DNA of 64,000 bases from Terriglobia bacterium (GCA_963739235.1 CAVTZY010000024.1:282123-346122); one strand, 5' to 3'; shown: positions 44,400-61,586, counted from the stretch's first letter. Made by a program: numbers and translations. Notes: generated from the letters alone by a model not told the origin.

Positions 44400-44657
44400 A
44401 TGAAAACCATTACCATCCGGAAGATTCCTCCAAGGGTTGAACGGGCGATCCGCCAGCGGGCCCGCGTCCAGAAAACGAGCGCCAACAAAGCCGTGATTGG
44501 CCTGATCGAGGATCACCTCGGAAATTCGGTTTCGGAATCCGCCGCCGAATACCGTGACCTGGACGAACTCGCCGGGCTTTGGAGCGAACGCGAGGCCACA
44601 TCTTTCAACGAAATCCTGGCCCGACAGAGAGCCCTGGATAAGGAACTCTGGAAATGA
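44400..44657 (+). CDS. vapB: VapB-like antitoxin (ribbon-helix-helix/Arc-type)
   Basis: 85 aa; MKTITIRKIPPRVERAIRQRA typical RHH antitoxin; ATGA overlap with PIN gene. Confidence 0.65.
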   Translation: MKTITIRKIPPRVERAIRQRARVQKTSANKAVIGLIEDHLGNSVSESAAEYRDLDELAGLWSEREATSFNEILARQRALDKELWK

Positions 44658-45055
44658 AGCGTCTGCTGTTGGATACTTCCGCCTATTCCGGCCTGCTGCG
44701 AGGTCACGAAGAAATCCACCGTCGCATCCGTCAGGCGGATGAAGTCTATGTCAATCCGATCGTCCTGGGCGAGCTGCGCGCCGGATTCGGGGCAGGGAGA
44801 CAAGCCCGGAAAAACGAGGGCTATCTCGGGCGCTTCCTGGCCTCGCCGCGAGTTGCTGTGCTGTCGATCGATGCGGAAACCTCCGAGCGCTACGCCTTAA
44901 TCCTGAAATCCCTTTGGGCGGCTGCATCCCCTGTGCCGACCAACGACATTTGGATCGCGGCCAGCGCCATGCAACATGGGCTTGCGGTGGTCACCACGGA
45001 TGCTCACTTCCTAAGGATTGCGCAAATCCTGGTTATCCATTTGCCTTCCCATTGA
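44654..45055 (+). CDS. vapC: PIN-domain toxin VapC
   Basis: 133 aa; LLDTSAY..., ...NDIWIAASAMQHGLAVVTTDAHF conserved PIN acidic residues. Confidence 0.8.
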   Translation: MKRLLLDTSAYSGLLRGHEEIHRRIRQADEVYVNPIVLGELRAGFGAGRQARKNEGYLGRFLASPRVAVLSIDAETSERYALILKSLWAAASPVPTNDIWIAASAMQHGLAVVTTDAHFLRIAQILVIHLPSH

Positions 45056-45065
45056 GGAATTTCTG

Positions 45066-45324
45066 GCGCTTAGATAAGGATTTCAATTGGGACCCTGAAA
45101 GGGTCCAGCAGCAAAGCCCAGGGCGCAAGCCCTGGGAACTGACGTTTGGCAAGGAATCAGCCCTGAAAGGGCGGTGCAGGCTGCGCCGCCCTTTCAGGGC
45201 TGGTTTCCCGGATGAACATGATCCCAGGGCTCACGCCCTGGGCTTTGCTGCCCCGCCCCTTCAGGGCTTAATCACTTGATTTGGCGGGACTAACAGGTGA
45301 TTGGGGCATTCTTAACTAAGCGCC
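45066..45324. repeat. MITE-like ~259-bp element (left copy) with 14-bp terminal inverted repeats (ggcgcttagataag / cttaactaagcgcc) and internal cluster of perfect hairpins (cccagggcgcaagccctggg; cagccctgaaagggcgg...ccgccctttcagggctg)
   Basis: Reverse complement occurs at 57413..57672; ends are mutual inverted repeats; followed at 45330..45405 by a 24-bp-stem perfect hairpin gacaggcgccataacctcgaaatt/aatttcgaggttatggcgcctgtc. Confidence 0.75.
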
Positions 45325-45407
45325 ATTCGAGACAGGCGCCATAACCTCGAAATTTCATGGGAAACAGGTTCCTCGAATCGCCAGTAATTTCGAGGTTATG
45401 GCGCCTG

Positions 45408-46703
45408 TCACCGTAATGGCCCTGCGCGCGAGGATTGGACGGAGGCGCAGAACAGGGCGCCCGCCCATGCCCCCAGGCAGGCCATCAGGATATCCGTGAC
45501 GCCGGCAGAGCGTGTCGGCAAAAAAGTCTGGGCGAATTCTATTCCTGCGGCCAGGATCATAGCGTAGGCAACGACAAACCCGCGCCGGTTACGGGCCAGA
45601 GACAGCTGCAGCAATCCCCCCAGCATGGCAAAGCTGACCATGGTAAGGACCAGGTCATAAAGCGCAATCGGTGTCCGCCGACTGCAATATTCATAAAACG
45701 GGATCCATTGAAAAGGCGGCTGCCGCGACCAGGCGGCAAAGCGGAAAGGACTTAATCCGGCGGCAATCAAGGCCAGGTTCATCACCAGCAGTCCCATGGG
45801 CGCACGCACCGCGGCGGGCATGCCGAAACCTACGGTGAATCCGGCAATGGATCCCAACAGATCGATCACCAAAGCATGCAACAAAGGAGGGTGCGCCTCC
45901 ACGAGCAGGCGGGCACACCCCAGTGCCAGAGGCAAAAGCGCCACCAGTGCCACAGCGCACCCGATTGACATGGGTGAACGCTTGCGCCTCCCGGGAACGG
46001 CTAGGCGGCTGGCCAGTGCCCCGATCAGCGCAAAACCCGCCATCTGCACCCACTCCTGGCCTATCGCGGATACTGAGTGCCAGGAGCCGGCTGTGAGCGC
46101 AGCCAGGCCGGAGTTAAAGCGCGAGAAGTAGTCCGGATCAATATCGAGCGGTCCGACAATAAAAACCATGGACGAGATCAGCATCCACAAGTAGATGTTC
46201 CTGCGCTCGTCGGTGCTTCCGGTAAGGAAATCGAGCACCCGCTTGCCGAACGCACGCGCCATGGCCGCTCCCGCCAATGCGCCGATGCCGTTGTTCAACA
46301 TGTCGGTGGTCCCGGAAGAACGACCCGGGATTGCCAACTGCAGAATCTCTGCGGCCAATCCGAGAGTCATTCCTATCGCAAACCACTTCCACAGCGCCCA
46401 CGACTTGTTTTTTTCAGTACGGTACATGAACCCGAAAAAGCCAAGAGGCACGGACAAGAGTATGTTGGCGGCGATGTCGGGAATTCCATGCATGCGCCCG
46501 CCCGGCGTATCCCAATAGGGAATCAGGCTGATATGCGACCAGGAATCCAGGAGATGACGATTCGAAATATCAAGGGTGAAGGGAAACAGCGCGCCATAGC
46601 AAAAGACCAGGACGGAAAAGTGGTAACCGTAGGTCGAGAGCAGGCGGGAAGCCTCCAACGGGAGTGTGCCGCATTCGGATTCCATCACGATTGATTTCGG
46701 CAC
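45408..46703 (-). CDS. VanZ-like family membrane protein (tandem VanZ-like domains)
   Basis: 431 aa, multi-TM; GRSSGTTDMLNNGIGALAG and TRSAGVTDILMACLGAWAG resemble the VanZ-family motif twice. Confidence 0.65.
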   Translation of the reverse strand: MPKSIVMESECGTLPLEASRLLSTYGYHFSVLVFCYGALFPFTLDISNRHLLDSWSHISLIPYWDTPGGRMHGIPDIAANILLSVPLGFFGFMYRTEKNKSWALWKWFAIGMTLGLAAEILQLAIPGRSSGTTDMLNNGIGALAGAAMARAFGKRVLDFLTGSTDERRNIYLWMLISSMVFIVGPLDIDPDYFSRFNSGLAALTAGSWHSVSAIGQEWVQMAGFALIGALASRLAVPGRRKRSPMSIGCAVALVALLPLALGCARLLVEAHPPLLHALVIDLLGSIAGFTVGFGMPAAVRAPMGLLVMNLALIAAGLSPFRFAAWSRQPPFQWIPFYEYCSRRTPIALYDLVLTMVSFAMLGGLLQLSLARNRRGFVVAYAMILAAGIEFAQTFLPTRSAGVTDILMACLGAWAGALFCASVQSSRAGPLR

Positions 46704-46739
46704 ACTCTCTTCCTTGCGGACGCGATGCTCCGGACTCGC

Positions 46740-48068
46740 TCAGTCCCTCATAAAATGAGGCATTTCAGGGGAAAGCTCGACAATCTGAGGTGCGGGTGGC
46801 CCGCCCTCGCCTCGAAGTCGGGCCGAGTTTCTTGACTCTATGGGCTGCTTCGAAAGTGGTGCCAGAGCAGATTTCCACAGGAGCCTGGCTATGCGGATCG
46901 GGAAGTACAGAAAAGACAATTGCGTGGGGAGTTCGAGGCAGATCCAATCGTGATATCGAGGCAAAAATATCATCCTGGTAAGTATTCGAATGCGGTCCGG
47001 CCATCGATCTGCCAGCCTGGCTTGATAAAAACAGCGCTCCATGGCAGTAAGCGGCGGAAGATCCGGGGCGAACAGACGGCTTTGGGCTAACGCTGCCAGG
47101 TCAAGTAGAGGCGCGTCCTCCCTGATTCGTCCCCGAACCTCTTCGGGAATTTCCACTCCGCAGAGATCATGCGCCATGACCAGGCCGAGCAGAAGCACCC
47201 GCTCGCTCCCGGAATCGCGGGCCTGTTTGAAAAGCCACTCCCAGTTCATATGTGGATTGGCGCGGACAAGTTCAGCCACGCCGCAAATCCATTCAAGTTT
47301 CTCCCACAAGTGCCTGCCGCCGTGAGCGCAGAGGATCAGAAGCAAGTCCATGTTTGAGAGATTGCGGACTCTTTTGCCTGCGAGATCGGCCCATTCAACC
47401 CGATTCCAGACACCCTGCATATCGATGGCGCATGGGAAAAAGATCGGGGCCACCTTCCAGTGAAGCTCAACACATGTTGAGTTGCCCTCGTGTCGATAGG
47501 GAATCTCGTATTGCGTCCACAGGAATGATGCCGATCGCGCCTGCGGAATCTCCTGGGTTGCCTTGTATCCTTGATCGCGCAACAAGGCCTCTGCCTGGGC
47601 GACTTTGTTTTCCGGGACCAGAATGTCGAGATCCTCGAATTGCCGGAACGCCAGGTTGCCGTATATCGACCTCGCCAGGACCGGACCTTTGAACGGGAGT
47701 GCCGGGATTCCGTGATTTTCAAAGAGTGTCAGGATCTTGATCAGTTCAGCGGTCAGCAGGAGATTCCTGGCGCTATTGTTCACAAAGCACTCGCGGAGCT
47801 CCTGTAGGACGGCGCGCGGCACCAGATCAGGACTGATAGAATGCAGGTGCCAATAGAGAAGGGGCATCAGACCGTGCCTGCGGCTTGCGGCAATGAGGCT
47901 GGGCCAATCGATCTCCGTTGCGAGCAGGCTCCTGATCCGCTCGGCGGTTTCCGCATTCATGCTTATCCGGGCCGAGCACCGAAGCAGCTCATCTTCGCGA
48001 CGCAGAGGCCCCTCAGCCTGGTTCGACCTCGTTGGGATGAATCGCTGCATCCTTGTATGGAGTTTCAT
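46740..48068 (-). CDS. Uncharacterised nucleotidyltransferase-family protein (PF14907-like) of the kind found in HPr-kinase-associated lasso peptide clusters
   Basis: Start ATG 48068 overlaps ABC stop (ATGA coupling); LLRCSARISMNAETAERIRSLLATEIDWPSLIAASRRHGLMPLLY...IPALPFKGPVLARSIYGNLAFRQFEDLDILV matches this family pattern (LL.CAR...IDW..L...A..HGV.PLLY...GI..IPLKGP.LA..LYG....R.F.DLDLLV). Confidence 0.6.
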   Translation of the reverse strand: MKLHTRMQRFIPTRSNQAEGPLRREDELLRCSARISMNAETAERIRSLLATEIDWPSLIAASRRHGLMPLLYWHLHSISPDLVPRAVLQELRECFVNNSARNLLLTAELIKILTLFENHGIPALPFKGPVLARSIYGNLAFRQFEDLDILVPENKVAQAEALLRDQGYKATQEIPQARSASFLWTQYEIPYRHEGNSTCVELHWKVAPIFFPCAIDMQGVWNRVEWADLAGKRVRNLSNMDLLLILCAHGGRHLWEKLEWICGVAELVRANPHMNWEWLFKQARDSGSERVLLLGLVMAHDLCGVEIPEEVRGRIREDAPLLDLAALAQSRLFAPDLPPLTAMERCFYQARLADRWPDRIRILTRMIFLPRYHDWICLELPTQLSFLYFPIRIARLLWKSALAPLSKQPIESRNSARLRGEGGPPAPQIVELSPEMPHFMRD

Positions 48069-49897
48069 ACCGGCGTTTCTATCTGCTTTGTCCAGGATTC
48101 CGCGTACCTGCCATCCCTTGAAAGCAGCTGGTTGTGAGTCCCCGATTCTACGATCCGGCCGTCCGCCATTACGTGAATGATGTCGGCACCCATGGCCGTG
48201 GTCAAACGGTGAGTGATGATGACGGTAGTGTGGCCCTCCACAAGCCGGCGAAACTGCGCCAGCCAGACAGCCTCTGCCCAGGGATCCATTGCGCTGGTGG
48301 GCTCGTCGAGTAGAAGGATGGGAGCGCGGCGCAGCAAAGCCCGGGCCAGCCCGATTTTCTGCCATTCGCCCGCGCTCAGTTCAGCTCCACTCTCGAACCA
48401 ACGGCCCAGCATGTTGTCGTAACCCTTCGGCAGGGCGGCGATGAATTCTTTCGCCCCAGCCGCGCATGCGGCAGCTTCGACGTCCTCGCTTTGGGGATCT
48501 GCCTTCAGATCGCCAAGCGCGATGTTCTCGCGCACCGTGACGTTGTAGTGAATCGGCACCTGATACAGCACGCTGATTCGGTGACGGAGTTCCTCGAGGC
48601 TGAAAGCGCGAAGATCGGTGCCGTCGAAACTTACTCGACCTTCACCCGGGTCGTAGAGGCGGCAAAGCAGTTTGATCAGCGTGCTCTTGCCTGCGCCGTT
48701 CGGACCCACGATCGCTGCAATCTGTCCGGCCGGGATCAGCAGGTTGAAATTGTCGAGAGCCTTCCGCTCGGTGCCGGGATAGCGGAAGGTCACATGCTCG
48801 AAGCAAACGCCGTATCGCAAAGCGGTCGGCGCCGGCAGGGGATGCGGTGGATCCACCAATTTGGGTTCCAGATCCAAAAAAGCAAACAGGTTGCCGAGGA
48901 ACAGAATGTCGGCGTAGATTTGACCCGTGTTTTGCAGCAATGAGCGCAACAGGAGTTGCCCGTGATTAAAGGCCTGATAAAAAAGCGCCAAGTCTCCAAG
49001 GGTGACCAGCCCCTGCAGAGCCCGCCACGCCAGCCACGCCAGCGCGCATCCGGTGATACCGAGAGCCATGCAGCCAGCCGCCAACTCGGCAAGAGTCTGA
49101 TTCTTCTTTAGATCCAGATGTTCATTGCGCAGCCGTTGCCGCAGAGACTGATAGGCCGATTGAAAATAACGGCCGATTCCGAAGAGACGCACTTCGGCTG
49201 CGTTCTCCCCAGTCGTGAGCAACCAGTCGTAATACCAGGTCCTGCGTTCGTCGGCAGTGGTTTGCAGGCGCCAATCGTGTTGACGCATGGTGTGGCGCAG
49301 GACCACAAAGAACGCCGGCAGACTGCTGGCCACCAGGGCGACAGGCAACCAGACGCCGAAGGAAAACAGAACTGCCGCCATCCCCACCAGCGTCACGCTG
49401 TTTTGAAACAGATTCCCGAGGTTCTCGAGCAGCGCAACGGGTCGATAGCCGGCCTCCGCCCGGGCACGGTGCAGGCGATCGAAAAATTCGGGGGTCTCGT
49501 AGAAAGCCAGGTCTGCAGCTATGGATTTGTCGTGGATCAGATTCGTGATGTGATCCTGCACCAGCTCGGACTGGGTTGAGCGTATCCACTTGGTAACGCT
49601 GCTCAAGACCTCCGTGAGGAGCACGATCCCCGCCAGCAGAATGACGATGATCAGTGCAGGCTTTGCGTTCTGCCAGGTGCCGCCCGTGCCTATGGCAGCT
49701 ACCAGGTAATTGACTACAAACCGCGTGAGGTAGGCCGTTGCCACGGGAAGCAGGCCCTGCAGAATGAGCAGAAAGATCCACGCCGCGGTATAGCCCTTGG
49801 ACGCGGCCTGTACCAGAGCTAATGCCCTGTATAGGCAGGGCAACTGGGCGCCCACTCCGTTCAGTCCGGATCTAACTCTGTGCAGGTATGTGAACAT
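48065..49897 (-). CDS. ABC exporter, fused permease + ATP-binding domains (lasso/RiPP-exporter type)
   Basis: 610 aa; 6 TM N-domain; Walker A GPNGAGKST, signature LSAGEWQKIGLARAL, Walker B ILLLDEPTSAMD, H-loop ITHRL. Confidence 0.85.
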   Translation of the reverse strand: MFTYLHRVRSGLNGVGAQLPCLYRALALVQAASKGYTAAWIFLLILQGLLPVATAYLTRFVVNYLVAAIGTGGTWQNAKPALIIVILLAGIVLLTEVLSSVTKWIRSTQSELVQDHITNLIHDKSIAADLAFYETPEFFDRLHRARAEAGYRPVALLENLGNLFQNSVTLVGMAAVLFSFGVWLPVALVASSLPAFFVVLRHTMRQHDWRLQTTADERRTWYYDWLLTTGENAAEVRLFGIGRYFQSAYQSLRQRLRNEHLDLKKNQTLAELAAGCMALGITGCALAWLAWRALQGLVTLGDLALFYQAFNHGQLLLRSLLQNTGQIYADILFLGNLFAFLDLEPKLVDPPHPLPAPTALRYGVCFEHVTFRYPGTERKALDNFNLLIPAGQIAAIVGPNGAGKSTLIKLLCRLYDPGEGRVSFDGTDLRAFSLEELRHRISVLYQVPIHYNVTVRENIALGDLKADPQSEDVEAAACAAGAKEFIAALPKGYDNMLGRWFESGAELSAGEWQKIGLARALLRRAPILLLDEPTSAMDPWAEAVWLAQFRRLVEGHTTVIITHRLTTAMGADIIHVMADGRIVESGTHNQLLSRDGRYAESWTKQIETPV

Positions 49898-50364
49898 GAC
49901 GTGATTGCATTCCGACGCATGATATTGAGCCTCTTAAAAGCGGCAAAGCGCTCGTGAACGTCATCCTGATCGTTCAGGACAACGCCGGCGTATTCAACCC
50001 ACGCGTGAGCGTCCAGTCCGGCCCCATCCTTGCGGACGCCAAACCATACATCTCCACGTATTCCTCGTTCTTGCATCAGCCACCAGAGAACGAGAGATTT
50101 CTGAAGACAGCGTGTACGAAAGAGACCTCGCTGGGATGCGATCTTGACCATCCGTGCGGCGGCACGGGCCTCTGCCAGATCGTGCCCCAGCGGACCTGGA
50201 ATCCTGCCTTCAAACCAGGATGCCAAACGGATCAGGATCGATTGACACCAACGAAAGCCCGCCAGGCGAAGACTGCAGCCCATCAGGGGCAGCATCCAAA
50301 GCGCAGAGAAAAGCATGCGGCGCTCACTGGCTGACAGCTGACGGAACTTGCCAATGCTATTCAC
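49861..50364 (-). CDS. Lasso-peptide-type B2 leader peptidase (transglutaminase-like Cys protease, PF13471-like)
   Basis: 167 aa; RTRCLQKSLVLWWLMQERGIRGDVWFGVRKDGAGLDAHAWVEYAGVVLND contains the Cys...His(AHAWVE)...Asp arrangement typical of McjB-like B2 proteins. Confidence 0.65.
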   Translation of the reverse strand: MNSIGKFRQLSASERRMLFSALWMLPLMGCSLRLAGFRWCQSILIRLASWFEGRIPGPLGHDLAEARAAARMVKIASQRGLFRTRCLQKSLVLWWLMQERGIRGDVWFGVRKDGAGLDAHAWVEYAGVVLNDQDDVHERFAAFKRLNIMRRNAITSCSHTCTELDPD

Positions 50365-50659
50365 GATGAACCTCGACCAATTGGTGTTCCAGCAGCGTTG
50401 TGATCAAATTCATGAAATCCGTTTGCAGCCGCGTTCCGTCAACATCGTATTCATTCAGCAGTTGCTCGTAGGCATCCCGGATAGAATCGGCGGCAGCCAA
50501 AACCAACCACATTCTGGTCCCGATCTCGTCCAGGCTGCAGCAGAATGGATTCCTGACACTGAGGATGACCGATTCGCCGCCAACCTCATTTATCAATGTG
50601 CCCGGTGCCACAGCCACCTTGCTCGTCATCGGGATGGCCATCAGATCTTCATCCTGCAC
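50357..50659 (-). CDS. PqqD-family RiPP recognition element (lasso B1-type)
   Basis: 100 aa; VAPGTLINEVGGESVILSVRNPFCCSLDEIGTRMWLVLAAADSIRDAYEQLLNEY typical PqqD pattern; overlaps B2 by 8 nt. Confidence 0.65.
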   Translation of the reverse strand: MQDEDLMAIPMTSKVAVAPGTLINEVGGESVILSVRNPFCCSLDEIGTRMWLVLAAADSIRDAYEQLLNEYDVDGTRLQTDFMNLITTLLEHQLVEVHRE

Positions 50660-51089
50660 AAAATAATCACATCATCGCCCCCCTGCAAAATGCCTTAGGA
50701 CACCGCTGTCGATCCGCATTCAGTTGACAAAGCGCCTCGCGAGGCCGATCGGCCGCAAACTGCATGCATTCACCGATTGTCACCGTTTTGCGAGCCACAG
50801 TGACAAGCAACACCCGTTCTTATCGTCCTTCCAGACCGGATTATTCACATAGTTATAAAACAAAGGATCTGCTTAAACAGCTGGACAACGATGCATTCCA
50901 ATTTGAGGCAGCCACTCGACGGAAACGCTACAAGCAATCGTTAAGAGCGAAAAACACGGGCAAAAATCGATTTTGGACCGGTGTTCGGCGTCGGTATCAG
51001 GGCTAATTGCTTGATTGGATGCGATCTGTTCTGATCCGACCCCCAACCCCGGCGGGATATGATCCGAGTGCTGTGCGGGAAGAGCCTAG

Positions 51090-51292
51090 CGGACGTCTCG
51101 GCTGACTTCGCGCGAGGATTGGATGGAGGCGCAGAACACGGCGCCATAGCAAGAAAATAGAACGGAATAGTACAAACCGTAGGTCGAGAGCAGGCGGGAA
51201 GCCTCCAACGGGAGTGTGCCGCATTCGGATTCCATCACGATTGATTTCGGCACACTCTCTTCCTTGCGGACGCGATGCTCCGGACTCGCCAT
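51090..51292 (-). pseudogene. Internally deleted remnant of a VanZ-like gene (first ~42 codons fused in-frame to last ~12 codons) plus duplicated upstream region
   Basis: 68-aa ORF ...PKSIVMESECGTLPLEASRLLSTYG... and ...FCASIQSSR matches N- and C-termini of 45408..46703; 51150..51290 is ~95% identical to 46600..46740. Confidence 0.55.
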
Positions 51293-51416
51293 GTCCGTTA
51301 ATCGCGCTCGGGAGTTCTTTTGTCCAATTATCGTTTGTCATTTCACTATTTCATATCACTACGGTCCGGTTAATGGAATTTATTACACATAAATTGTGCT
51401 ATACTGTTAATGTGCA

Positions 51417-51659
51417 ATGGAGGATCTCATGAACAAGAATGTCACATTGCGGCTGGATGAAGCTGTCTTGCGCAAGGCCAGACATGCGGCAGTCGAGCAG
51501 GACCAGTCCTTGTCGGAATGGGTGGCCGATTTGGTCATTCGCACCACATCCGAAACGGATCGCAAGCAGAGTGCCCGGACCAGCGCGCTGCATCGGATAC
51601 GCAAAGGCTTGCATCTGGGCGGCACACCACTTTCGAGGGAGGAAGCCCATGGGCGTTGA
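51417..51659 (+). CDS. Putative antitoxin (RHH/CopG-like) of second VapBC-like pair
   Basis: 80 aa; NVTLRLDEAVLRKARHAAVEQDQSLSEWVADLV typical RHH-type antitoxin; overlaps PIN gene start. Confidence 0.5.
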   Translation: MEDLMNKNVTLRLDEAVLRKARHAAVEQDQSLSEWVADLVIRTTSETDRKQSARTSALHRIRKGLHLGGTPLSREEAHGR

Positions 51660-52071
51660 TCAGATCTTTGTCGACACCAACATACTCGTCTACGCACACG
51701 ATATCGATGCAGGCGAGAAATACCGGATCGCCAGGGACAAGATATCCGCCCTATGGCATCGTGATCTGCTGCCGAGCATCAGCGTCCTGGTACTGCAGGA
51801 ATTCTATGTAAATCTCATCAGGAAGAAAGTTGCCACGCCGCTTGCCCGGGAGACCGTGACCAACTACCTCGAGTGGGATGTGATCGACAATGACCGTTTC
51901 CTCTTCATCGAAGGGCTCCGATGGAAAGAGAAGTGCAACCTGGCCTACTGGGATGCTTTGATACTTGCCGCGGCAAGAAAAGCCAAGGCAAAGGAGGTTT
52001 GGAGCGAAGATTTGGCCTCTGGCCAGAATTACGATGGAATCATGGTGGTAAACCCGTTGATTCAGCAATGA
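51649..52071 (+). CDS. PIN-domain toxin (VapC-like)
   Basis: Start chosen at MGVDQIFVDTNILVYAHD (ATG 51649) within ORF-track 51439..52071; conserved PIN D residues (VDTNIL, ...YWDALILAAA). Confidence 0.65.
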   Translation: MGVDQIFVDTNILVYAHDIDAGEKYRIARDKISALWHRDLLPSISVLVLQEFYVNLIRKKVATPLARETVTNYLEWDVIDNDRFLFIEGLRWKEKCNLAYWDALILAAARKAKAKEVWSEDLASGQNYDGIMVVNPLIQQ

Positions 52072-52949
52072 CGCTTGTATTTTGGAGAGGCGGCCACAAT
52101 GAATCTAGCCCGGGCCGGCAAGAGCGTCACGTGAACGTCCGAAGGCAGGGGGGACGGCAAGCTTCTCGTGCAAATGCCTCGCTGCCCAATGCGATGCATG
52201 CTGTTTATATCCCGCTTTGAACCAGGCGCCCTTCTGCAATTGCTTCCGCAACGCGACTCCGGTGCGCGTCTGCCAAGGCCTCCCTAACACGCGCGCCCAG
52301 AACTTCAATTTATCTAACTGCCATCCGTGACAGGCACTTACATAAGGTGAAACTCTTCTCTCGCCCTTCCAGGGCTCTCGTGCATACTCATAAACCCCGG
52401 GCGGCGCTGCGCTTGCCCGGGGCTACTATCTCGCGCGCCTCCGGCGCGGGTTCCGCCCGCAGATTACAGGATTCCCCTGCACACCCGTCTCGGCGTGCGT
52501 TATCCATGCAGTGTGCCCACCTGCCATTGTGCACATACCCCGGAGGTTACGCAATCGTGCCTGCTCAGCGCGTCAAAATTGCGCAACCTGTGATTGTGCA
52601 ATATGTCGCTCCCCCCAACATGTTGTGATACGCGCCTTATCACACAATCGAAGGGGCAATAAGATAGTAGCCGGGTGTAAGCGCAGTGCCGCCCCCGGTT
52701 AACCAATGACGCATAATGAGCCCCGGCGGGGCGAAGGAAAACCACGTTATCCTCCATGTAAAGGTTGAGCCAGCCCTCAGGAGCCCTTATCAGAGTGCCA
52801 TTCGTGCCTTTTGCCAGTTTCGCTTCGATCCAAAGGCATAAGGGTTCAATGATCGGCAGTCGATGAGATATTCCAGGCGAGTGCAGCCGCAAGCTGTATT
52901 TGTGTATGGCAAAGGCAAATGCCTGCTGGGGTAGTCAAAGAGGTTCTGG

Positions 52950-55900
52950 ATGACGCCAGGTGAAGAAAATTGCCGTCGGCATTCCGCTATCATCACGGGC
53001 GGGCTATTACTCCTGTGTCTCTGGACTTGCTTCTTGGGGGTAGCCAGAGCCGCCGATACCGGTTTCAAAACGACCGGGACAATTGTGTCCTCGGGGAGCT
53101 GGACAAACTTTACCACGGTCTATATCAACTCCAGTAACGACCAACGGGCATATGTCTCGTCCTCGAGCAGTTATGGTGTCTGCTCCACGTACGGTTTTTC
53201 GATTCCTGCAGATGCCAGGATCGATGGCATTGAGGTGCAAGTGGAAGGGAGAGAGCCGTTTACGTTCGGGACGGTGAATTTTGGTATCCAAGTCTCCTGG
53301 AACAACGGATCCAGTTGGGTCACTGAAAAAACCAGCTCGTTTAATTCGTCCACTGACGCCACCAGCACATTCGGAGGCTCGTCCGACACATGGGGCCGGA
53401 GTTGGACCGACACGGAATTCTCCGACGCCAATTTCCAGTTGAGGGTCAGAAAGATAAGCGGTATCCTTAATTTTGAAATTGACTTCCTCCAGGTACGCGT
53501 CTACTACACTAATGCCAAAACGTGGGATCGGGGGGCCGGTACAAACAATTGGGGAGATGCCAACAACTGGAACCCCGACGGTGTGCCGCTGGCAACAGAG
53601 AATGTAAGTCTCACCGGTGCCGACACCATCGATGTCAATGTCGCGGGAGTTTGCAACAGCATTACATTGAACAATGCTGGTCTCGCTCTCACGGTGAAGA
53701 GCGGAAACTCGCTCACTGCTTCATTTAACTTTAAGCTCACCAGCGGCACATTGAATACGGAGGCTGCCTTCCCAACGGTAACCGGAACTACAACTATTTC
53801 GGCCGGAACAGTTGGCTACAATGGCAGCGGAGCTCAGGCCGTCCTGGCGTTGAATTACTACAATCTTACCCTCAGCAATGCAGGGACGAAAACGATCGCA
53901 ACGGCGACGACGGTGGCGGGGGACATGACGACATCGGGGACGGTGACGGCGTCGTGCAGCGGCAGCCTGACTGTGAGCGGCAATGTCGTCATCGGCAGCG
54001 GCACCACCTTCAACGGCGGCAGCGGAACCGTGGACTTCAACGGGACTCTGACCATCACCAGCGCTACCTTCACCGCCACCAGCGGCAGCCTCTCCGTCGC
54101 CGGAAATCTCACCATCAGTGGGAGCACGTTTGCTCACAATTCTGGCACCGTCGTTTTCGATGGCACCGATGCCACCCTCACTTCCGGGGGCGCTGCCTTC
54201 AATAACTTCACCGTCAACGCCGCCAACAAACAGGTCTATCTCTCCGCCAGTGGTTCCTTGACCGTCAACGGCACCCTCAGCATCCAAACCGGATACCTGA
54301 TCCAGGATCCCGCCAACAACCTTTCCGCCGGCTCAATCAGTATCGGCGCCAGCGGCAGATTGAGAAACTACGGCACTGGCAGCCTCACCCTGGCCGGACC
54401 CGTTTCCAACTCAGGAACAATCGATTTCGACGGAGGCGGCGATGCTTCGTGCACGGGCACCAATCGAATCCTGATCCGCTCCTCCGTCAACGGCACGCAG
54501 CGTGCCTGGAGCAGCTCGGGCGGCACCTTCCAGATGGTCGACGTCGACATCCAAGACCAGGCAGGCACCGCGGCCATCACCTGCTATGGCTCACAGAGTT
54601 CCGGCAACAACGGCGCCAACTGGACGATCAACACCGATTGCGCCGGAGCGCCCACAGCCGTCACGCTGGTCTCGTTTGGAGCGCAGCAAGCGGATACGGC
54701 AGTCAAGTTGCAGTGGCAGACCGGCTATGAAGTGCAGAACCTTGGCTTTCACATTTACCGGGAATCAGGCGGAGTGATCGAGCGTGTCTCGCCGTCGCTG
54801 ATTGCGGGATCGGCGCTTTTTGCCGGCGCGCGGACAGCCCTGGGGACGGGACGATCCTACGAGTGGTGGGATCGCGACGGAGGCGGCCACAGCGGTGCGC
54901 AGTATTGGCTGGAAGACATCGGCCTTGACGGGAACAGAACGCGCCATGGGCCGGTTACGCCGGCTCCGGGCGGACGGGAGATGTCTGATGCCGGCCAATC
55001 CCCGCTGCTCAAAGACATCGGCAGGGCTCAACTTCATTCGGGTAAGCCCAAATCAACCGATTCTGAGACGCAGCCTCAAAGAACGACGGCATCCGACGCG
55101 CCGGAACCGTTACCGACGATGGCGCCCGAGACGCCGGAACCGCCACCGACGATCGCTGACCAGATGCGCGTCCAGATCTGGATCGCAGGGCAGTACGCGG
55201 TCAAGCTGCTGGTAAAACGGGACGGCTGGTACCGTGCGACACAAGCTCAGCTGATTGCTGCCGGACTGAACCCGGATCTCGATCCGCGCAAGCTTCAGCT
55301 GTATGCCGCCGGCGTCGAACAGGCCATCGTAGTCAGCGGCGAAGAAGACGGCCATTTCGATAGCGGGGACTCGGTCGAGTTCTTCGGCCTCGGGATCGAT
55401 ACGCCCTGGACGGACCAACGCGCCTACTGGCTGATCGAAGGCCCGGTCCCGGGCAAAAGAGTCCGGCAGGTATCGCCCGCGGGCGGCGCCGATGCCGGCG
55501 CCAGCTTCCGCTACGATGTCGAGCTCAAACCCCGGACGATACACTTCGGGGCCCTCCTCAATGGCGACGCCGAGAACTTTTTTGGAAACGTGGTGGATCC
55601 CTCGGGGGACGAGGAGATTCTGAGGGTGCATCACCTGGACAACACGGCTCCTGCCGACGCCAGGTTGGAAATCACGCTGCAGGGTGCGACGAAGGAGCCC
55701 CATCAGGTCCGCATCGATCTCAACGGCGCCCAAATCGGCGTTCTTTCATTCGAGCAGCAAATGCAGGGTACGCAGAGGTTCGCACTTCTCGCCGGGTTGC
55801 TCCGGGACGGGGACAACACGGTTCACCTGGTCGCGTTGGGCAGCGACACCGACATTTCTCTCGTCGCGTCCATCCGCCTGTCTTACTGGCACACCTTCAC

Positions 55901-57392
55901 GGCCGATGGCGAAGAACAGCGCGTCACGGCCGGAGGGGGACGGGAAGTGACGATCGGCGGATTTACCAGCACCTCCATCCGCGTCGTGGATGTCTCCGAT
56001 CCCGCAAACGTCAGCGAAATCAACGGGCGGACCCTTGGCGCCGGGTCTGGCTATGAGGTCGCTTTCAGCACCCCTGACAAAAGCGGGGCTCTGCAACTGC
56101 TGGCTTTCGGCGATGAGGCGGTGCAGATGCCTGCGGCCATTCTCCCCCATGCCCCATCGCACTGGAGTGAACACACGTCCGGCGCTGATGTGATTCTGGT
56201 CACGCATGAATCCTTCCAGGAGGCTGCCGCATCTCTTGCTTCCCAGCACAAGGCTGCCGGACTCCAGGCGGCAATCGTCAATGTGGCAGACCTTTATGAC
56301 GAGTTTTCGTTCGGCCTCAAGAACCCGTCCGCGATCCGGGACTTTGTCCTGCGGGCGCTGGCCACATGGAGCAGAGTCCCACGCTGGCTCGTTCTGCTCG
56401 GTGACGCATCCTTCGACCCGAGGGACTATCTCGGTTTAGGAGCAGGCGACTTCGTCCCCACCAAGCTGATTGACACCCAGTACCTCGAGACGGCCTCGGA
56501 CGACTGGTTCGCCGATGCCAACAACGACGGGATCCCGGAGCTTGCGATTGGGCGCCTTCCGGTGCGGACTCCGGCGGAAGCCAATGCCCTGGTTGCCAAG
56601 CTCGCCGCCTATAGGAAGCAGGCCCGCTCGGATGACTGGGCGAAGCGCGTCGCGCTCGTGGCCGATGCCAACGACACCTGGGATTTTGAAGCCGCCAGCG
56701 AAGCCATCAAAGCGGACCTGGGGGCCGACTGGACTTACGCCTCCTTCTATCGCGGCCAGCTCGGCACCTCCGCAGCTCGCCCGGCTTTGCTCGCCGCACT
56801 CGAGGCCGGGAACGCCGTCGTCAACTACTTCGGGCACGGTTCGGTGGAACTCTGGCATGACAACCTGCTCACCTCCGAAGATGCACGGAACCTGGGCAAC
56901 GGCGTGAAACTGCCGCTGTTTCTGATGATGACCTGCCTGAACGGCTTCTTCGTGGATGTTTACAGCGAGTCGCTGGGCGAAGCTCTGCTCAAAGATCCCG
57001 ATGGCGGTGCCGTGGCCGTCTGGGCATCGAGCGGGCTGGCCGAGCCTGACGGGCAGCTGCCGGCGAATCGCGAGGTGTACAGCGAGCTGAAGCGACCCGG
57101 CGCCACTCTCGGCCAAGCCGTCGCCCGAGCCAAGGCTGCCACGAGCGACGCCGACGTACGGCGCACCTGGGTTCTGCTCGGGGATCCGACCCTGGGGTCT
57201 CCGGTGGCTGGGCCCGCTCAGGTGGTTGGCGATATCAACGGCGATGGGGTGGTGAATGTACTGGATCTCCAGCTCTTGGTCAACATCATCCACGGGGTGA
57301 GCCCCTGCACCGGCAACTGCGACCTCAACGGCGATGGCAGCGTGAATCTGCTGGATCTGCAGATTCTTGTCAACATCATCCTCGGAGTCTGA
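52950..57392 (+). CDS. Giant secreted protein: signal peptide, Gly/Thr/Ser-rich beta-helix-like repeat region, peptidase family C25 (gingipain-like) catalytic domain, C-terminal tandem dockerin-like repeats
   Basis: 1480 aa; VVNYFGHGSVELW and PLFLMMTCLNGFF match C25 His/Cys catalytic motifs; C-terminus GDINGDGVVNVLDLQLLVNIIHG ... CDLNGDGSVNLLDLQILVNIILG are two dockerin-type Ca-binding repeats. Confidence 0.7.
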   Translation: MTPGEENCRRHSAIITGGLLLLCLWTCFLGVARAADTGFKTTGTIVSSGSWTNFTTVYINSSNDQRAYVSSSSSYGVCSTYGFSIPADARIDGIEVQVEGREPFTFGTVNFGIQVSWNNGSSWVTEKTSSFNSSTDATSTFGGSSDTWGRSWTDTEFSDANFQLRVRKISGILNFEIDFLQVRVYYTNAKTWDRGAGTNNWGDANNWNPDGVPLATENVSLTGADTIDVNVAGVCNSITLNNAGLALTVKSGNSLTASFNFKLTSGTLNTEAAFPTVTGTTTISAGTVGYNGSGAQAVLALNYYNLTLSNAGTKTIATATTVAGDMTTSGTVTASCSGSLTVSGNVVIGSGTTFNGGSGTVDFNGTLTITSATFTATSGSLSVAGNLTISGSTFAHNSGTVVFDGTDATLTSGGAAFNNFTVNAANKQVYLSASGSLTVNGTLSIQTGYLIQDPANNLSAGSISIGASGRLRNYGTGSLTLAGPVSNSGTIDFDGGGDASCTGTNRILIRSSVNGTQRAWSSSGGTFQMVDVDIQDQAGTAAITCYGSQSSGNNGANWTINTDCAGAPTAVTLVSFGAQQADTAVKLQWQTGYEVQNLGFHIYRESGGVIERVSPSLIAGSALFAGARTALGTGRSYEWWDRDGGGHSGAQYWLEDIGLDGNRTRHGPVTPAPGGREMSDAGQSPLLKDIGRAQLHSGKPKSTDSETQPQRTTASDAPEPLPTMAPETPEPPPTIADQMRVQIWIAGQYAVKLLVKRDGWYRATQAQLIAAGLNPDLDPRKLQLYAAGVEQAIVVSGEEDGHFDSGDSVEFFGLGIDTPWTDQRAYWLIEGPVPGKRVRQVSPAGGADAGASFRYDVELKPRTIHFGALLNGDAENFFGNVVDPSGDEEILRVHHLDNTAPADARLEITLQGATKEPHQVRIDLNGAQIGVLSFEQQMQGTQRFALLAGLLRDGDNTVHLVALGSDTDISLVASIRLSYWHTFTADGEEQRVTAGGGREVTIGGFTSTSIRVVDVSDPANVSEINGRTLGAGSGYEVAFSTPDKSGALQLLAFGDEAVQMPAAILPHAPSHWSEHTSGADVILVTHESFQEAAASLASQHKAAGLQAAIVNVADLYDEFSFGLKNPSAIRDFVLRALATWSRVPRWLVLLGDASFDPRDYLGLGAGDFVPTKLIDTQYLETASDDWFADANNDGIPELAIGRLPVRTPAEANALVAKLAAYRKQARSDDWAKRVALVADANDTWDFEAASEAIKADLGADWTYASFYRGQLGTSAARPALLAALEAGNAVVNYFGHGSVELWHDNLLTSEDARNLGNGVKLPLFLMMTCLNGFFVDVYSESLGEALLKDPDGGAVAVWASSGLAEPDGQLPANREVYSELKRPGATLGQAVARAKAATSDADVRRTWVLLGDPTLGSPVAGPAQVVGDINGDGVVNVLDLQLLVNIIHGVSPCTGNCDLNGDGSVNLLDLQILVNIILGV

Positions 57393-57412
57393 TTTCGGGG
57401 ACAGGCGCGAAT

Positions 57413-57672
57413 GGCGCTTAGTTAAGAATGCCACAATCACCTGTTAGTCCCGCCAAATCAAGTGATTAAGCCCTGAAGGGGCGGAGCAGCAAAGCCCAGG
57501 GCGTGAGCCCTGGGATCATGGTCATCCGGGAAACCAGCCCTGAAAGGGCGACGCAGCCTGCGCCGCCCTTTCAGGGCTGATTCCTTGCCAAACGTCAGTT
57601 CCCAGGGCTTGCGCCCTGGGCTTTGCTGCTGGACCCTTTCAGGGTCCCAATTGAAATCCTTATCTAAGCGCC
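57413..57672. repeat. MITE-like ~259-bp element (right copy), inverted relative to 45066..45324
   Basis: Reverse complement of the left copy with few mismatches; additionally flanked by short inverted repeats atttcggggacaggcgc / gcgcctgtccccgaaat. Confidence 0.75.
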
Positions 57673-57717
57673 TGTCCCCGAAATAGCACAGGCGAGGATC
57701 TATCCACGTTTACAATA

Positions 57718-58641
57718 TCAGCCTGCGTGCTGTCTCAGGGATTCAACCACGCGATAGTCGGGAACGACACTGAGTTCATAGCAGGGAATGTTCTTGATCA
57801 GCTCTTCATAAAAACCGAGAGTGAACTCAAGCCCGCCCCGGTCATAGAAGGTGGGAAAGGTGCACGAAAAGAGGTGAGCGGCGGCCTCGGCACCGGTCTT
57901 TCTCACGATTGCGTTTTCAGAGCCGTGACGCAAAAGGAAAACTTTCTTCAGCAATGCGCGCTGAGGCTGGGCAAACTCAGCTTCCCCGTGCCAAGGTGTG
58001 CCATACATCCAATAGTGCCCATCTGTCCGACGCAGAATGATGCGGTCGTCGCTGAGAATCGTCACTCCTCGTTCTCGTTCCCAAAGCCTGGCCATGGTCG
58101 TTTTGCCGGCGCCGGACTGACCTGCAAAAACATATCCGTTTCCCGAAATATCCACGAGCCCACACGCGTGGATTTCAACGCCGCTTCCCCTGGATAGAAT
58201 GTGCAGCATCATGAGTTCATCCAAAGGATACTGGAGCGGATATACGGCCTGACCCGGGTCAAAGTGGGGGCGGTGAAGATATACTTCGCCGAAATTGAAA
58301 TCCCGATTGAAGCGTGCAATTGCGTATGGAACCGGGCCAAGAGTGGCGGCAAAACATTGATAAAGGTAGCATCCATCCTCGGCAAACAGTTTCCATGAAC
58401 CACCGGAATCGAAAATCCTGTCCCAGCCGCATTCGGCCGTGAGATTCTGCCAGGAGGCTTCAAGATTCACGTCGGCTTTTAACCTGGGCACCCTGAACCG
58501 ACTCATCTCCGCACCGGGATGGATCTTCATGTCAGGAGCGACGGAGGTAATAGAAATACTGATATCGGCAATTGCGAGGCAAACCTCGCCGAAGGATGGT
58601 TTGGGTTCTGCGGCTCCTGGAAAGGATGTGCTCAAGATCAT
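57718..58641 (-). CDS. HPr kinase-related (HprK C-terminal-domain-like) kinase, RiPP-associated type
   Basis: 307 aa; P-loop GQSGAGKTT followed by ILSDD; this kinase family accompanies PqqD-type RRE proteins in lasso peptide clusters, where it phosphorylates the precursor C-terminal Ser. Confidence 0.7.
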   Translation of the reverse strand: MILSTSFPGAAEPKPSFGEVCLAIADISISITSVAPDMKIHPGAEMSRFRVPRLKADVNLEASWQNLTAECGWDRIFDSGGSWKLFAEDGCYLYQCFAATLGPVPYAIARFNRDFNFGEVYLHRPHFDPGQAVYPLQYPLDELMMLHILSRGSGVEIHACGLVDISGNGYVFAGQSGAGKTTMARLWERERGVTILSDDRIILRRTDGHYWMYGTPWHGEAEFAQPQRALLKKVFLLRHGSENAIVRKTGAEAAAHLFSCTFPTFYDRGGLEFTLGFYEELIKNIPCYELSVVPDYRVVESLRQHAG

Positions 58642-58700
58642 GGCAGCTCAGTCAGCTGAAAACCGGAGTGCGTTCTGATGTCGGGAGGCAGGAGCCCTGC

Positions 58701-58883
58701 TCAGGATGCGAGGCTATTGCAGGGCACCGGCGCATTACATTTTGCCTGCGCCGGACCGGTGAATCCGGCATTCTTGCATGCTCCTAAGACGGCTTCTTCG
58801 GGTTTCAGCAGCACCTGCTTCAGCTGCGGTTTTTCATAAGGTTTTTTCTTGGGTTCGAGCCCTTTCTCCGGTTTGTCATTCAT
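58701..58883 (-). CDS. Candidate RiPP precursor peptide (60 aa): Lys/Pro-rich leader containing YEKPQL (YxxPxL) and a core with three Cys and a C-terminal Ser
   Basis: MNDKPEKGLEPKKKPYEKPQLKQVLLKPEEAVLGACKNAGFTGPAQAKCNAPVPCNSLAS; AGGAAAG RBS 5 nt upstream of ATG; located between the rSAM/SPASM gene and the HprK-like kinase on the same strand. Confidence 0.45.
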   Translation of the reverse strand: MNDKPEKGLEPKKKPYEKPQLKQVLLKPEEAVLGACKNAGFTGPAQAKCNAPVPCNSLAS

Positions 58884-58991
58884 ACGCTTTCCTCGCTCAC
58901 AAGTTTCCGGCCTCTTGGGCCGCGCGTGCCGATCAAAATCCAGGGCCGACGCCGAGATCGGCCTGGAAGCCCCACACTCTCACGTGTGCCG

Positions 58992-61552: not shown

Positions 61553-61586
61553 CGATCCTCGGTTCGTAGGAGCCGACCAACCGGAT

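What the first reader, a model, noticed from the sequence alone, without database searches (positions are those of the whole stretch)
45066..57672. Inverted pair of ~259-bp hairpin-rich MITE-like elements bracketing a 12-kb segment that separates the two RiPP half-clusters
45066..45324 and 57413..57672 are near-perfect reverse complements. Each has its own 14-bp terminal inverted repeats and several perfect internal palindromes. Inverted repeats of this length are substrates for recombinational inversion.

If the bracketed segment were inverted, the B1-B2-ABC-NTase-VanZ genes would land within ~1.5 kb of the kinase-precursor-rSAM-PqqD operon. The result would be a compact, convergently transcribed cluster. 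Either an inversion split an ancestral cluster, or the segment switches between two orientations.
Basis: inference. Interest (0 to 1): 0.6.

Follow-up and report, generated by a model that had tools for sequence, protein, structure and literature searches.

The report
Two inverted MITE copies, native gene cluster
Two copies of a small non-coding jumping element (a MITE) from acidobacteria sit in opposite orientation 12 kb apart, but the genes between them are in their conserved order, so this looks like ordinary selfish-DNA insertion, not a split or switching gene cluster.

Summary
Window 45065-45329 and 57408-57672 are reverse complements: 265 nt, 260 identical. Each copy has 17-nt terminal inverted repeats and dense internal palindromes.

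The element belongs to a mobile family. I found 15 further loci in Acidobacteriota MAGs and soil or peat metagenomes. Those copies carry 22-nt TIRs (CGAATGGCGCTTAG...) and clean 9-bp target-site duplications, and they insert into a REP-like hairpin motif (GGGGACAGGCGCC). One arm of each copy matches Rfam RF01687 (Acido-Lenti-1 RNA) above its gathering score.

The claim that an inversion split an ancestral cluster is not supported. An independent contig has PqqD-rSAM-peptide-kinase, then a convergent C25 peptidase, then B2-ABC-NTase. That is the same order and orientation as the window now, with only 12 bp between kinase and C25. The C25 and NTase genes inside the bracketed segment are conserved partners of the kinase operon outside it.

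Both copies lie between convergent gene ends, and no recombinase gene is nearby. Occasional RecA-type flipping cannot be excluded without reads.

One point is unexplained. Both window copies lack the left-terminal CGAAT and any target-site duplication.

Verdict: a new MITE family, modest interest.

The parts
45065..45329 (+). MITE copy A. It is 265 nt and its left end lacks the family's terminal CGAAT. It lies between the convergent 3' ends of vapC and vanZ.
57408..57672 (-). MITE copy B. It is 265 nt, 98.1% identical to A, and inverted relative to A. It lies between the convergent 3' ends of the C25 peptidase and kinase genes.
45065..45081 (+). Left TIR of copy A (GGCGCTTAGATAAGGAT), abutting flank GAGGAATTTCT. 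There is no CGAAT and no TSD.
45308..45329 (-). Right TIR of copy A, complete: CGAATGGCGCTTAGTTAAGAAT on the minus strand.
57408..57429 (+). Right TIR of copy B, complete (CGAATGGCGCTTAGTTAAGAAT). It is the inner junction, next to TGATTTCGGGGACAGGCG.
57656..57672 (-). Left TIR of copy B, abutting ...ATTTCGGGGACA. There is no CGAAT.
45223..45268 (+). Module matching Rfam RF01687 (Acido-Lenti-1) at 49.2 bits (gathering score 37). A weaker mirror copy lies at 45091-45136 on the minus strand (27.2 bits).
57469..57514 (-). Module matching Rfam RF01687 at 51.9 bits. A weaker mirror copy lies at 57601-57646 on the plus strand (27.2 bits).
45155..45205 (.). Central palindrome of copy A. The equivalent in copy B is 57532-57582.
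45331..45409 (.). H-family REP-like hairpin with perfect 24-bp arms (GACAGGCGCCATAACCTCGAAATT). Its left arm carries the target that copy A occupies; its right arm is an unoccupied target. A second, unoccupied H copy lies at about 26990-27070.
57393..57407 (+). Inner half of the 30-bp palindrome ATTTCGGGGACAGGCGCCTGTCCCCGAAAT that copy B splits. The outer half is 57673-57687.
44400..45055 (+). vapB-like RHH antitoxin (44400-44657) and vapC PIN toxin (44654-45055). These are the left outer neighbours.
45408..50659 (-). Operon on the minus strand, in transcription order: B1 (PqqD, 50357-50659), B2 (lasso-type leader peptidase, 49861-50364), ABC exporter (48065-49897), NTP_transf_5 nucleotidyltransferase (46740-48365), VanZ (45408-46703).
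51439..52071 (+). PIN-domain protein gene inside the segment.
52950..57392 (+). Peptidase_C25 / PorU-like protein with a dockerin domain. It is a conserved neighbour of the kinase in related cassettes, and its stop codon abuts the palindrome split by copy B.
57718..60741 (-). Operon on the minus strand, in transcription order: PqqD (60271-60741), radical SAM/SPASM enzyme (58992-60299), 60-aa Cys-rich precursor (58701-58883), HprK/ScmC-like kinase (57718-58641).

Best explanation
The two repeats are copies of a non-autonomous DNA transposon (a MITE) of Acidobacteriota.

Shown in relatives:
- The full element is about 270 bp and has no coding capacity.
- It ends in 22-nt terminal inverted repeats (CGAATGGCGCTTAG[A/T]TAAG...).
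- It makes 9-bp target-site duplications.
- It prefers a target resembling GGACAGGCG, which lies in the arms of a REP-like hairpin family.
- Its body is built of hairpin modules, one of which is already catalogued as the Acido-Lenti-1 RNA motif.

In the window, each copy sits in such a hairpin between two convergent gene ends: vapC/vanZ and C25/kinase.

Inferred:
- These are two separate insertions, or one local hop, into safe intergenic hairpins.
- The inverted arrangement is incidental.
- The 12-kb stretch between the copies is native DNA in its ancestral orientation. It carries C25, B1-B2-ABC and NTase, which together with the kinase operon make up one conserved peptide-maturation cassette.
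- The pair is a possible substrate for rare homologous inversion but not a designed switch. Every transcription unit would stay intact in either orientation.
- As transcribed 3' hairpins, the copies may act like REP elements, as terminators or mRNA stabilisers.
For: Mobile family:
- 4 loci in different Acidobacteriota MAGs and 11 metagenome contigs hold the element. Outside the element and up to about 30 nt of target-motif flank, none shows similarity to the window.
- 9-bp direct repeats at exact junction positions: four perfect (L088 TGTCGGACC, L025/L117 GGACAGGCG, L114 GGACTGAGG, L112 TGACAGGCT) and one 8 of 9 (L116).
- Length variants run from 97 to about 460 bp. L114 keeps the ends but has an unrelated core.

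Target preference and hairpin family.

Rfam RF01687: hits above the gathering score in the window and in L088, L095 and L118.

Native segment:
- The P0124 contig has the same order and orientations, with a 12-bp kinase-C25 gap.
- The kinase is followed by C25 in L123, L125 and L127.
- The window's C25 is 41-49% identical and its NTase 37-40% identical to those of these cassettes.
- In the P0005 contig the kinase is followed by a co-directional PqqD gene.
- L122 shows the same palindrome type as at copy B, with an intact junction.
- L123 has a GGGGAGGCGTCCCC hairpin between kinase and C25. It aligns weakly (z about 3.6) to the window junction with copy B removed.

No switch machinery: Pfam finds no recombinase or transposase in or beside the segment.
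Against: - Neither window copy has a target-site duplication as it stands. Both lack the left-terminal CGAAT that all 11 other left ends retain, exactly or with 1-2 substitutions. In-situ insertion therefore needs two small junction deletions. The one at B fits slippage between GGCGC repeats; the one at A has no clear microhomology.
- Swapping flanks, as an inversion would, restores one good duplication: B-left GGACAGGCG against A-right AGACAGGCG.
- The syntenic comparators are distant (kinase 59-60% identity, B2 59%). DNA of the best one was not available, so absence of the element there rests on gene spacing only.
- Copy number in the source genome is unknown, so I cannot say whether two copies 12 kb apart is more than chance.
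- No autonomous transposase partner was found.
Confidence: 0.75

Rival explanations
1. The 12-kb segment has inverted at least once. This could have happened by homologous recombination between two earlier insertions. Alternatively, intramolecular replicative transposition could have created the second copy and flipped the segment in one step. The present flanks would then be exchanged.
For: - Neither copy has matching 9-bp flanks.
- In element orientation, B-left (…ATTTCGGGGACA+GGCG) plus A-right (AGACAGGCGCCATAACCTCGAAATT) rebuild the complete target seen at L025/L117, with an 8 of 9 duplication. This needs only a 9-nt GGCGC slippage.
- The copies share 110 bp of uninterrupted identity.
Against: - The other predicted pair (A-left with B-right) shows no duplication.
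- The target is palindromic and repeated. Identical 16-nt flanks occur at unrelated loci (L113, L025), so the one good match is expected from target preference alone.
- The present orientation is the conserved one. This model therefore needs an earlier unexplained flip away from the conserved order and then a flip back.
- The two flanks of B are the two halves of one hairpin. L122 has the same hairpin type at an intact insertion junction, and L123 has a G-rich hairpin between kinase and C25 without any element.
Confidence: 0.15
2. The pair is a programmed invertible switch (phase variation) that toggles the relation between the two operons of the peptide cassette.
For: The repeats are inverted and flank half of a functional cassette. 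Nothing else supports this.
Against: - No invertase or other recombinase gene lies in or next to the segment. The only integrase is 40 kb away.
- The repeats are 265-bp copies of a transposable element found at unrelated loci in other species, not short recombinase sites.
- Both lie at convergent 3' ends, so flipping moves no promoter relative to any gene.
- Promoter-like sites in the region are not enriched over shuffles.
Confidence: 0.03
3. The two elements and the DNA between them form a composite transposon or an imported island.
For: Two copies of one mobile element bracket a gene set. The wider window is rich in islands and toxin-antitoxin genes.
Against: - No direct repeat flanks the composite: GGAATTTCT on one side against TGTCCCCGA on the other.
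- The outer ends are the damaged ones.
- The cargo (C25, NTase, B2, ABC) is syntenic with the kinase operon outside the bracket in element-free relatives.
Confidence: 0.03
4. The repeats are primarily genes for a structured small RNA (Acido-Lenti-1), and their mobility is secondary.
For: - Rfam RF01687 hits at 49-52 bits, above the gathering score of 37, in both copies and in relatives.
- Weinberg et al. 2010 rated the motif a probable RNA with covariation (PMC2864571).
Against: - The match covers 46 of 265 nt.
- A weaker mirror match lies on the opposite strand of the same element, as expected for a DNA palindrome.
- The motif is multi-copy, often tandem, and has no conserved gene context in the 2010 data.
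- Here it lies inside a unit with TIRs and target duplications.
- L114 keeps the ends of the element but has an unrelated core; its only Rfam test (gathering threshold) gave no hit.
Confidence: 0.07

Closest known systems
Bacterial MITEs (for example Correia/CREE of Neisseria, Nezha of cyanobacteria, RUP of Streptococcus)
   Same: It is small (97 to about 460 bp) and non-coding. It has terminal inverted repeats and fixed-length target-site duplications. It has strong hairpin potential and an intergenic location. It occurs as many variants that share ends but differ in core sequence.
   Different: The family appears to be undescribed. It was absent from the plasmid collection searched, and no paper was found. 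It makes 9-bp duplications, targets a REP-like hairpin, and no parent insertion sequence has been identified. The two copies in this window have damaged left ends.
Rfam RF01687, the Acido-Lenti-1 RNA motif (Weinberg et al. 2010, PMC2864571)
   Same: One arm of each copy scores 49-52 bits against the model (gathering score 37). The phylum is the same (Acidobacteria). Like the motif, the element is multi-copy and has no conserved gene context.
   Different: The Rfam entry describes a 46-nt two-hairpin candidate sRNA. Here it is one module of a 265-270-bp element bounded by TIRs and target duplications. The flanks of the 2010 representatives do not contain this TIR.
REP/BIME palindromes and the insertion sequences that target them (for example IS1397 and ISKpn1; recalled from memory)
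   Same: The element inserts into a repeated extragenic palindrome at gene 3' ends. The H family (45331-45409 and about 26990-27070) behaves like REP.
   Different: The inserting unit here is a MITE. Only two H copies were seen, so calling H a REP-type family is an inference.
Inversions mediated by inverted IS or MITE copies, including intramolecular replicative transposition of IS26 (recalled from memory)
   Same: Inverted copies of one mobile element bracket a segment, and neither copy has matched duplications.
   Different: Synteny indicates that the segment is in its ancestral orientation. The flank-exchange signature is incomplete and ambiguous.
Lasso-peptide clusters with an HPr-kinase-like kinase and a nucleotidyltransferase (paeninodin type; recalled from memory)
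   Same: B1 (PqqD), B2 (NF033537, 68.9 bits), an ABC exporter, a kinase and an NTP_transf_5 enzyme are present. The precursor ends in Ser.
   Different: There is no lasso cyclase anywhere in the window. A radical SAM/SPASM enzyme with its own PqqD partner and a conserved C25 peptidase are present instead.

Membership tests
MITE (non-autonomous DNA transposon) | Short, with no coding capacity | tested here: met
   The window copies are 265 nt and relatives are 97 to about 460 nt. ORFs overlapping the element are only a 121-aa overlap ORF and 33/39-aa ORFs, none taken as a gene.
MITE (non-autonomous DNA transposon) | Terminal inverted repeats | tested here: met
   The window TIRs are 17 nt, matching at 15 of 17. 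Relatives have 22 nt including CGAAT/ATTCG.
MITE (non-autonomous DNA transposon) | Target-site duplication of fixed length | tested here: inconclusive
   Met in relatives: 9 bp at 5 independent loci. Not met by either window copy, both of which lack the left terminus and any duplication.
MITE (non-autonomous DNA transposon) | Several copies at unrelated loci | tested here: met
   There are 2 copies in the window and 15 loci elsewhere that share nothing with the window beyond the element and up to about 30 nt of target-motif flank. Copy number in the source genome could not be tested.
MITE (non-autonomous DNA transposon) | An autonomous element with the same ends that encodes the transposase | tested here: not met
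   No transposase lies in the window or next to single ends in L113, L115, L118 and L119. The plasmid collection gave no match. Whole genomes could not be searched.
Rfam RF01687 Acido-Lenti-1 | Covariance-model score at or above the gathering score (37 bits) | tested here: met
   49.2 bits at 45223-45268(+) and 51.9 bits at 57469-57514(-). L088, L095 and L118 also pass.
Rfam RF01687 Acido-Lenti-1 | Expressed as an RNA | not testable with these tools
   No transcript data were available.
Programmed invertible segment (inverton / shufflon) | A site-specific recombinase encoded in or beside the segment | tested here: not met
   Pfam and NCBIfam scans of all larger ORFs from 44400 to 63521 found none.
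Programmed invertible segment (inverton / shufflon) | Both orientations present in the population | not testable with these tools
   No reads were available. The k-mer contigs of Logan ERR10755944 break about 30 nt into the repeat.
Composite transposon | A direct duplication flanking the whole unit, and cargo foreign to the locus | tested here: not met
   The outer flanks are unrelated. The cargo is syntenic with the outside operon in relatives.
Lasso peptide gene cluster | A lasso cyclase (asparagine-synthase-like C protein) alongside B1/B2 | tested here: not met
   B2 meets its cut-off and B1 is PqqD-like. No Asn_synthase-type protein was found among the window ORFs scanned.

The most novel reading that the evidence does not exclude
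The two 98%-identical inverted copies are an active recombination substrate, and the natural population holds both orientations of the 12-kb segment. Flipping would alternate the B1-B2-ABC-NTase-VanZ operon between co-directional with the kinase operon (C25 next to the kinase) and convergent with it (VanZ next to the kinase). The missing target duplications and damaged left ends would be scars of such exchanges. A milder novel reading is better supported, at about 0.6. It holds that the Rfam 'Acido-Lenti-1 sRNA' is in this lineage a module of a hairpin-targeting MITE, not a free-standing RNA gene.
Probability: 0.1. Interest if true: 0.5.

Novelty: new member of a known kind. Interest (0 to 1): 0.3.

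Why it matters
- It removes a tempting but wrong story, that of a RiPP cluster split or switched by inversion. The genes on both sides of repeat B form one conserved cassette in its usual order.
- It defines a MITE family in Acidobacteriota by its ends, duplication length, target and variants. Mobile elements in this phylum are poorly catalogued.
- It suggests that an Rfam candidate sRNA (Acido-Lenti-1) is, at least here, part of a mobile repeat. That affects how such hits should be annotated.
- The repeats break short-read assemblies exactly at this cassette (contigs L001 and L002 end inside them). This matters for anyone mining these clusters from MAGs.

Tried and rejected
- The genome-contig scan used a 15-base TIR pattern. 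Four true relatives were rescued by BLAST.
- Exact-protein look-ups of VapC and the kinase returned only short Logan contigs that end in the repeat. They say nothing about orientation.
- Look-ups of VanZ and C25 found nothing on record.
- BLAST of the element against plasmids found nothing.
- A literature search found no paper on an acidobacterial MITE of this kind.
- The flanks of the 2010 Acido-Lenti-1 representatives were searched for this TIR. None was found in that file.
- norB relatives at 94.7% nucleotide identity share only the gene, not its flanks, so they give no close-strain comparison.
- Flank logic was worked through for the in-situ, inversion and composite models. The target motif is palindromic and repeated, so flanks alone cannot decide between in-situ and inversion. 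The composite model was rejected.
- A third degenerate copy at 52330-52805 was examined. It is not significant (BLAST found nothing, nhmmer E = 0.055).
- The terminator and promoter scans showed no enrichment.

Full report
**1. The observation**

The window holds one long inverted pair. Reading both arms and aligning them gives a shared unit of 265 nt: 45065-45329 on the plus strand and 57408-57672 on the minus strand. The two copies differ at five positions (98.1% identity), and 12,078 nt lie between them.

- Each copy starts with GGCGCTTAGATAAGGAT and ends with the reverse complement of GGCGCTTAGTTAAGAAT, followed by ATTCG.
- This end pattern has 4 matches in the window against 0.02 expected by chance.
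- The body is a near-palindrome, with a central 51-nt palindrome and two 45-nt arms that pair.
- As single-stranded DNA it folds at -93.7 kcal/mol, z = -11.8.
- Two contigs from an independent short-read assembly (Logan ERR10755944) reproduce both outer junctions and stop about 30 nt into the repeat.

**2. What the repeat is**

A scan of species-representative genomes with too short a pattern was mostly noise. BLAST of the fetched loci nevertheless recovered four true relatives, all in Acidobacteriota MAGs: L088 at 95% over the full length, plus L022, L095 and L025. A more specific scan of metagenome contigs gave 11 further loci. None shares anything with the window outside the element and a few flanking bases, so these are independent insertions.

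In those loci the element is longer by five bases at the left end. It runs CGAAT-GGCGC...GCGCC-ATTCG, giving 22-nt inverted ends.

It is flanked by direct 9-bp repeats at exact junction positions:
- L088/L121: TGTCGGACC
- L025/L117/L120: GGACAGGCG
- L114: GGACTGAGG
- L112: TGACAGGCT
- L116: ATTCCGAC[T/C]

Sizes range from 97 to about 460 bp. L114 keeps the ends around an unrelated core, and L112 and L115 carry a nested second repeat. These are the marks of a MITE family moved in trans by a DDE-type transposase. I found no transposase partner.

**3. Target**

The bases next to the element are similar at unrelated loci. ATTTCGGGGACAGGCG occurs at L113, at L025 and at both sides of copy B, and close variants occur elsewhere.

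In the window this motif is the arm of a hairpin element I call H, which has two copies:
- 45331-45409, with perfect 24-bp arms; copy A sits at the base of its left arm.
- About 26990-27070, unoccupied, immediately after the norB stop codon.

Copy B splits a 30-bp perfect palindrome, ATTTCGGGGACAGGCGCCTGTCCCCGAAAT, which reads as an H element without its middle. L122 shows the same palindrome type with an intact junction.

Both window copies lie between convergent gene ends: vapC/vanZ and C25/kinase. The simplest reading is a MITE that homes to REP-like 3' hairpins, where insertion does little harm.

**4. Link to a known RNA family**

One arm of each copy matches Rfam RF01687, the Acido-Lenti-1 RNA, at 49.2 and 51.9 bits against a gathering score of 37. 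A weaker mirror match lies on the other strand of the other arm. Relatives L088, L095 and L118 also pass.

The source paper describes Acido-Lenti-1 as follows (PMC2864571):
- a two-hairpin candidate sRNA of Acidobacteria and Lentisphaerae;
- 89 representatives, many per genome and often in tandem;
- no conserved gene context.

The flanks of those representatives do not contain this TIR. In this lineage, then, the motif is one module of a mobile repeat. Whether it is also an expressed RNA cannot be tested here.

**5. The genes**

Pfam and NCBIfam give the following map.
- Left of copy A: vapB and vapC (+).
- Inside the segment: VanZ, NTP_transf_5, ABC exporter, lasso-type B2 and B1 (PqqD), all on the minus strand; then a PIN protein and a 1480-aa Peptidase_C25/PorU-like protein, both on the plus strand.
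- Right of copy B: an HprK/ScmC-like kinase, a 60-aa peptide, a radical SAM/SPASM enzyme and PqqD, all on the minus strand.
- Further right: Wzz/GNVR polysaccharide genes.

The window holds no lasso cyclase and no transposase.

The peptide is conserved, with the motif KKPYxKPQLKQVxLKPEEAVLGxCK, three Cys residues and a C-terminal Ser.

The best named relatives of norB are Candidatus Acidiferrum, Bryobacteraceae and Terriglobales. The window therefore most likely comes from a member of Acidobacteriota, class Terriglobia. This is an inference.

**6. Test of the 'split cluster' idea**

The kinase family is large, with 6428 hits. The nearest non-self relative is only about 60% identical, so no close strain is available. 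The gene neighbourhoods of relatives are nevertheless consistent.
- L123: NTase ... PqqD-rSAM-61aa-kinase, then a convergent C25 gene 43 bp away.
- L125: NTase, then PqqD-rSAM-60aa-kinase-164aa-C25.
- L127: NTase-PqqD-rSAM-kinase-C25 x3.
- The contig of the best B2 relative on a long contig (P0124, 59% identity): PqqD-rSAM-60aa-kinase, a convergent C25 after a 12-bp gap, then 112aa-B2-ABC(610 aa)-NTase, and further on Wzz/GNVR.

The P0124 arrangement is the window's present order and orientation, gene for gene, and it leaves no room for a 265-bp repeat between kinase and C25.

The window's C25 and NTase match the C25 and NTase of these cassettes by tblastn, at 41-49% and 37-40% identity.

Three conclusions follow:
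- The bracketed segment is not foreign.
- The repeat at 57.4 kb is an insertion inside one conserved cassette.
- The two operons are co-directional now.

Inverting the segment would move C25 12 kb from the kinase and make the operons convergent, which no relative shows. One limit applies: DNA of the P0124 contig could not be fetched.

**7. Flanks: the unexplained part**

Both window copies lack the left CGAAT and any 9-bp duplication. In both cases this is at the outer junction. All 11 other left ends seen retain these five bases, exactly or with one or two substitutions.

- For copy B, in-situ insertion with duplication CGCCTGTCC, as in L122, followed by a 16-nt slippage deletion between GGCGC repeats, gives exactly the observed junction.
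- For copy A, a deletion of 13-15 nt with no clear microhomology is needed.

Alternatively, flank exchange by inversion pairs B-left with A-right and rebuilds the L025-type site with an 8 of 9 duplication. The other pair shows nothing, however. The target is palindromic and recurs identically at unrelated loci, so the match is weak evidence.

L123 has a GGGGAGGCGTCCCC hairpin between kinase and C25. It aligns to the window junction with copy B removed, at z about 3.6 against shuffles. This gives mild support to the idea that both flanks of B are native to that spot.

Weighing synteny most heavily, I put in-situ insertion at about 0.75 and a past inversion at about 0.15. Why both left ends are damaged remains open. 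Candidate causes are scars of one-ended cleavage or recombination with copies elsewhere. I mark this as unexplained.

**8. Can it still flip?**

The copies share 110 bp of uninterrupted identity. From general knowledge of RecA-dependent recombination, that is enough for rare exchange. Several points argue against a programmed switch:
- No recombinase gene is near.
- The repeats are ordinary copies of a transposable element.
- Both lie at 3' ends, so no promoter-gene relation would change.
- Promoter and terminator scans show nothing special.

A programmed switch is unlikely. A low level of both orientations cannot be excluded without reads.

**9. Verdict**

The repeat pair is real and is a new member of a known kind. 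It is a MITE family of Acidobacteriota that targets REP-like hairpins and carries the Acido-Lenti-1 motif. The proposed biological significance, a RiPP cluster split or switched by inversion, is not supported. Interest is modest.

Noticed in passing
window 45408-63521: A widely conserved peptide-maturation cassette lies next to Wzz/GNVR polysaccharide genes. Its core is a nucleotidyltransferase, PqqD, a radical SAM/SPASM enzyme, a 60-aa precursor (3 Cys, C-terminal Ser), an HprK/ScmC-like kinase and a Peptidase_C25/PorU-like protein. Here it also has lasso-type B1, B2 and an ABC exporter, but no lasso cyclase. The kinase family has more than 6,400 members with E <= 1e-5.
   Followed up: partly
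window 51106-51296 versus 45422-46746: A remnant of the vanZ gene is fused at 51106-51296. It joins the 5' 162 nt (91% identity) to the 3' 40 nt (93% identity). The B1-B2-ABC-NTase block is therefore flanked by direct vanZ repeats, which suggests an old tandem duplication or insertion (families D4 and D12).
   Followed up: partly
window 45331-45409 and about 26990-27070: Two copies of an about 95-bp hairpin element (H family) lie at gene 3' ends. Its arms contain the MITE's preferred target.
   Followed up: partly
window 45064/45065 and 57672/57673: Both MITE copies lack the left-terminal CGAAT and any target duplication, unlike all other family members seen. The junctions are confirmed by independent contigs.
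   Followed up: partly
window 12222-12311, 16339-16382, 34335-34378; 15994-16293, 33990-34289: A tRNA-Ser gene has two 44-nt partial copies downstream, each preceded by a ~300-nt repeat (96% identity). This looks like tandem islands inserted at the tRNA. A phage-type integrase lies at 3986-4588.
   Followed up: no
window 34498-35034 and 42159-42694: The start of an esterase gene is duplicated, with 300 nt at 100% identity and 237 nt at 91%. Two paralogous esterase genes lie 7.66 kb apart.
   Followed up: no
window 24682-26984; L130, L131: norB is 94.7% identical at the DNA level to two JGI contigs, but the similarity stops near the two ends of the gene (just upstream of the start codon and at the last codon) and the flanks are unrelated. 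The gene sits in different contexts in near relatives.
   Followed up: partly
window 14324, 28004, 34445, 41052, 42028, 43807: A further family of 49-73-nt repeats is rich in GCGTCCC and ATTTTG motifs (D6/D8/D9). An end resembling the MITE's (CGAATGGCAC...) abuts one of them at 42005-42026.
   Followed up: no
window 52330-52805: The PIN-C25 intergenic region may hold an old, degenerate relative of the MITE. It has a TIR-like end at 52783-52804(-), the sequence GACAGGCACTTACATAAGG at about 52330, and a weak Acido-Lenti-1 hit at 52416-52448 (24.3 bits). It is not significant (nhmmer E = 0.055).
   Followed up: partly
L129 versus window 49444-51204: The short-read contig from ERR10755944 differs from the window by 2 mismatches and 2 gaps, which gives a 99% variant of B2. 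This could be strain microdiversity or assembly error.
   Followed up: no
L112 about 10909-11105; L115 about 2840-3200: In two metagenome copies the MITE carries a nested insertion of another palindromic repeat (GGGACCGCGGGCGTCTCGCCCGC...).
   Followed up: no
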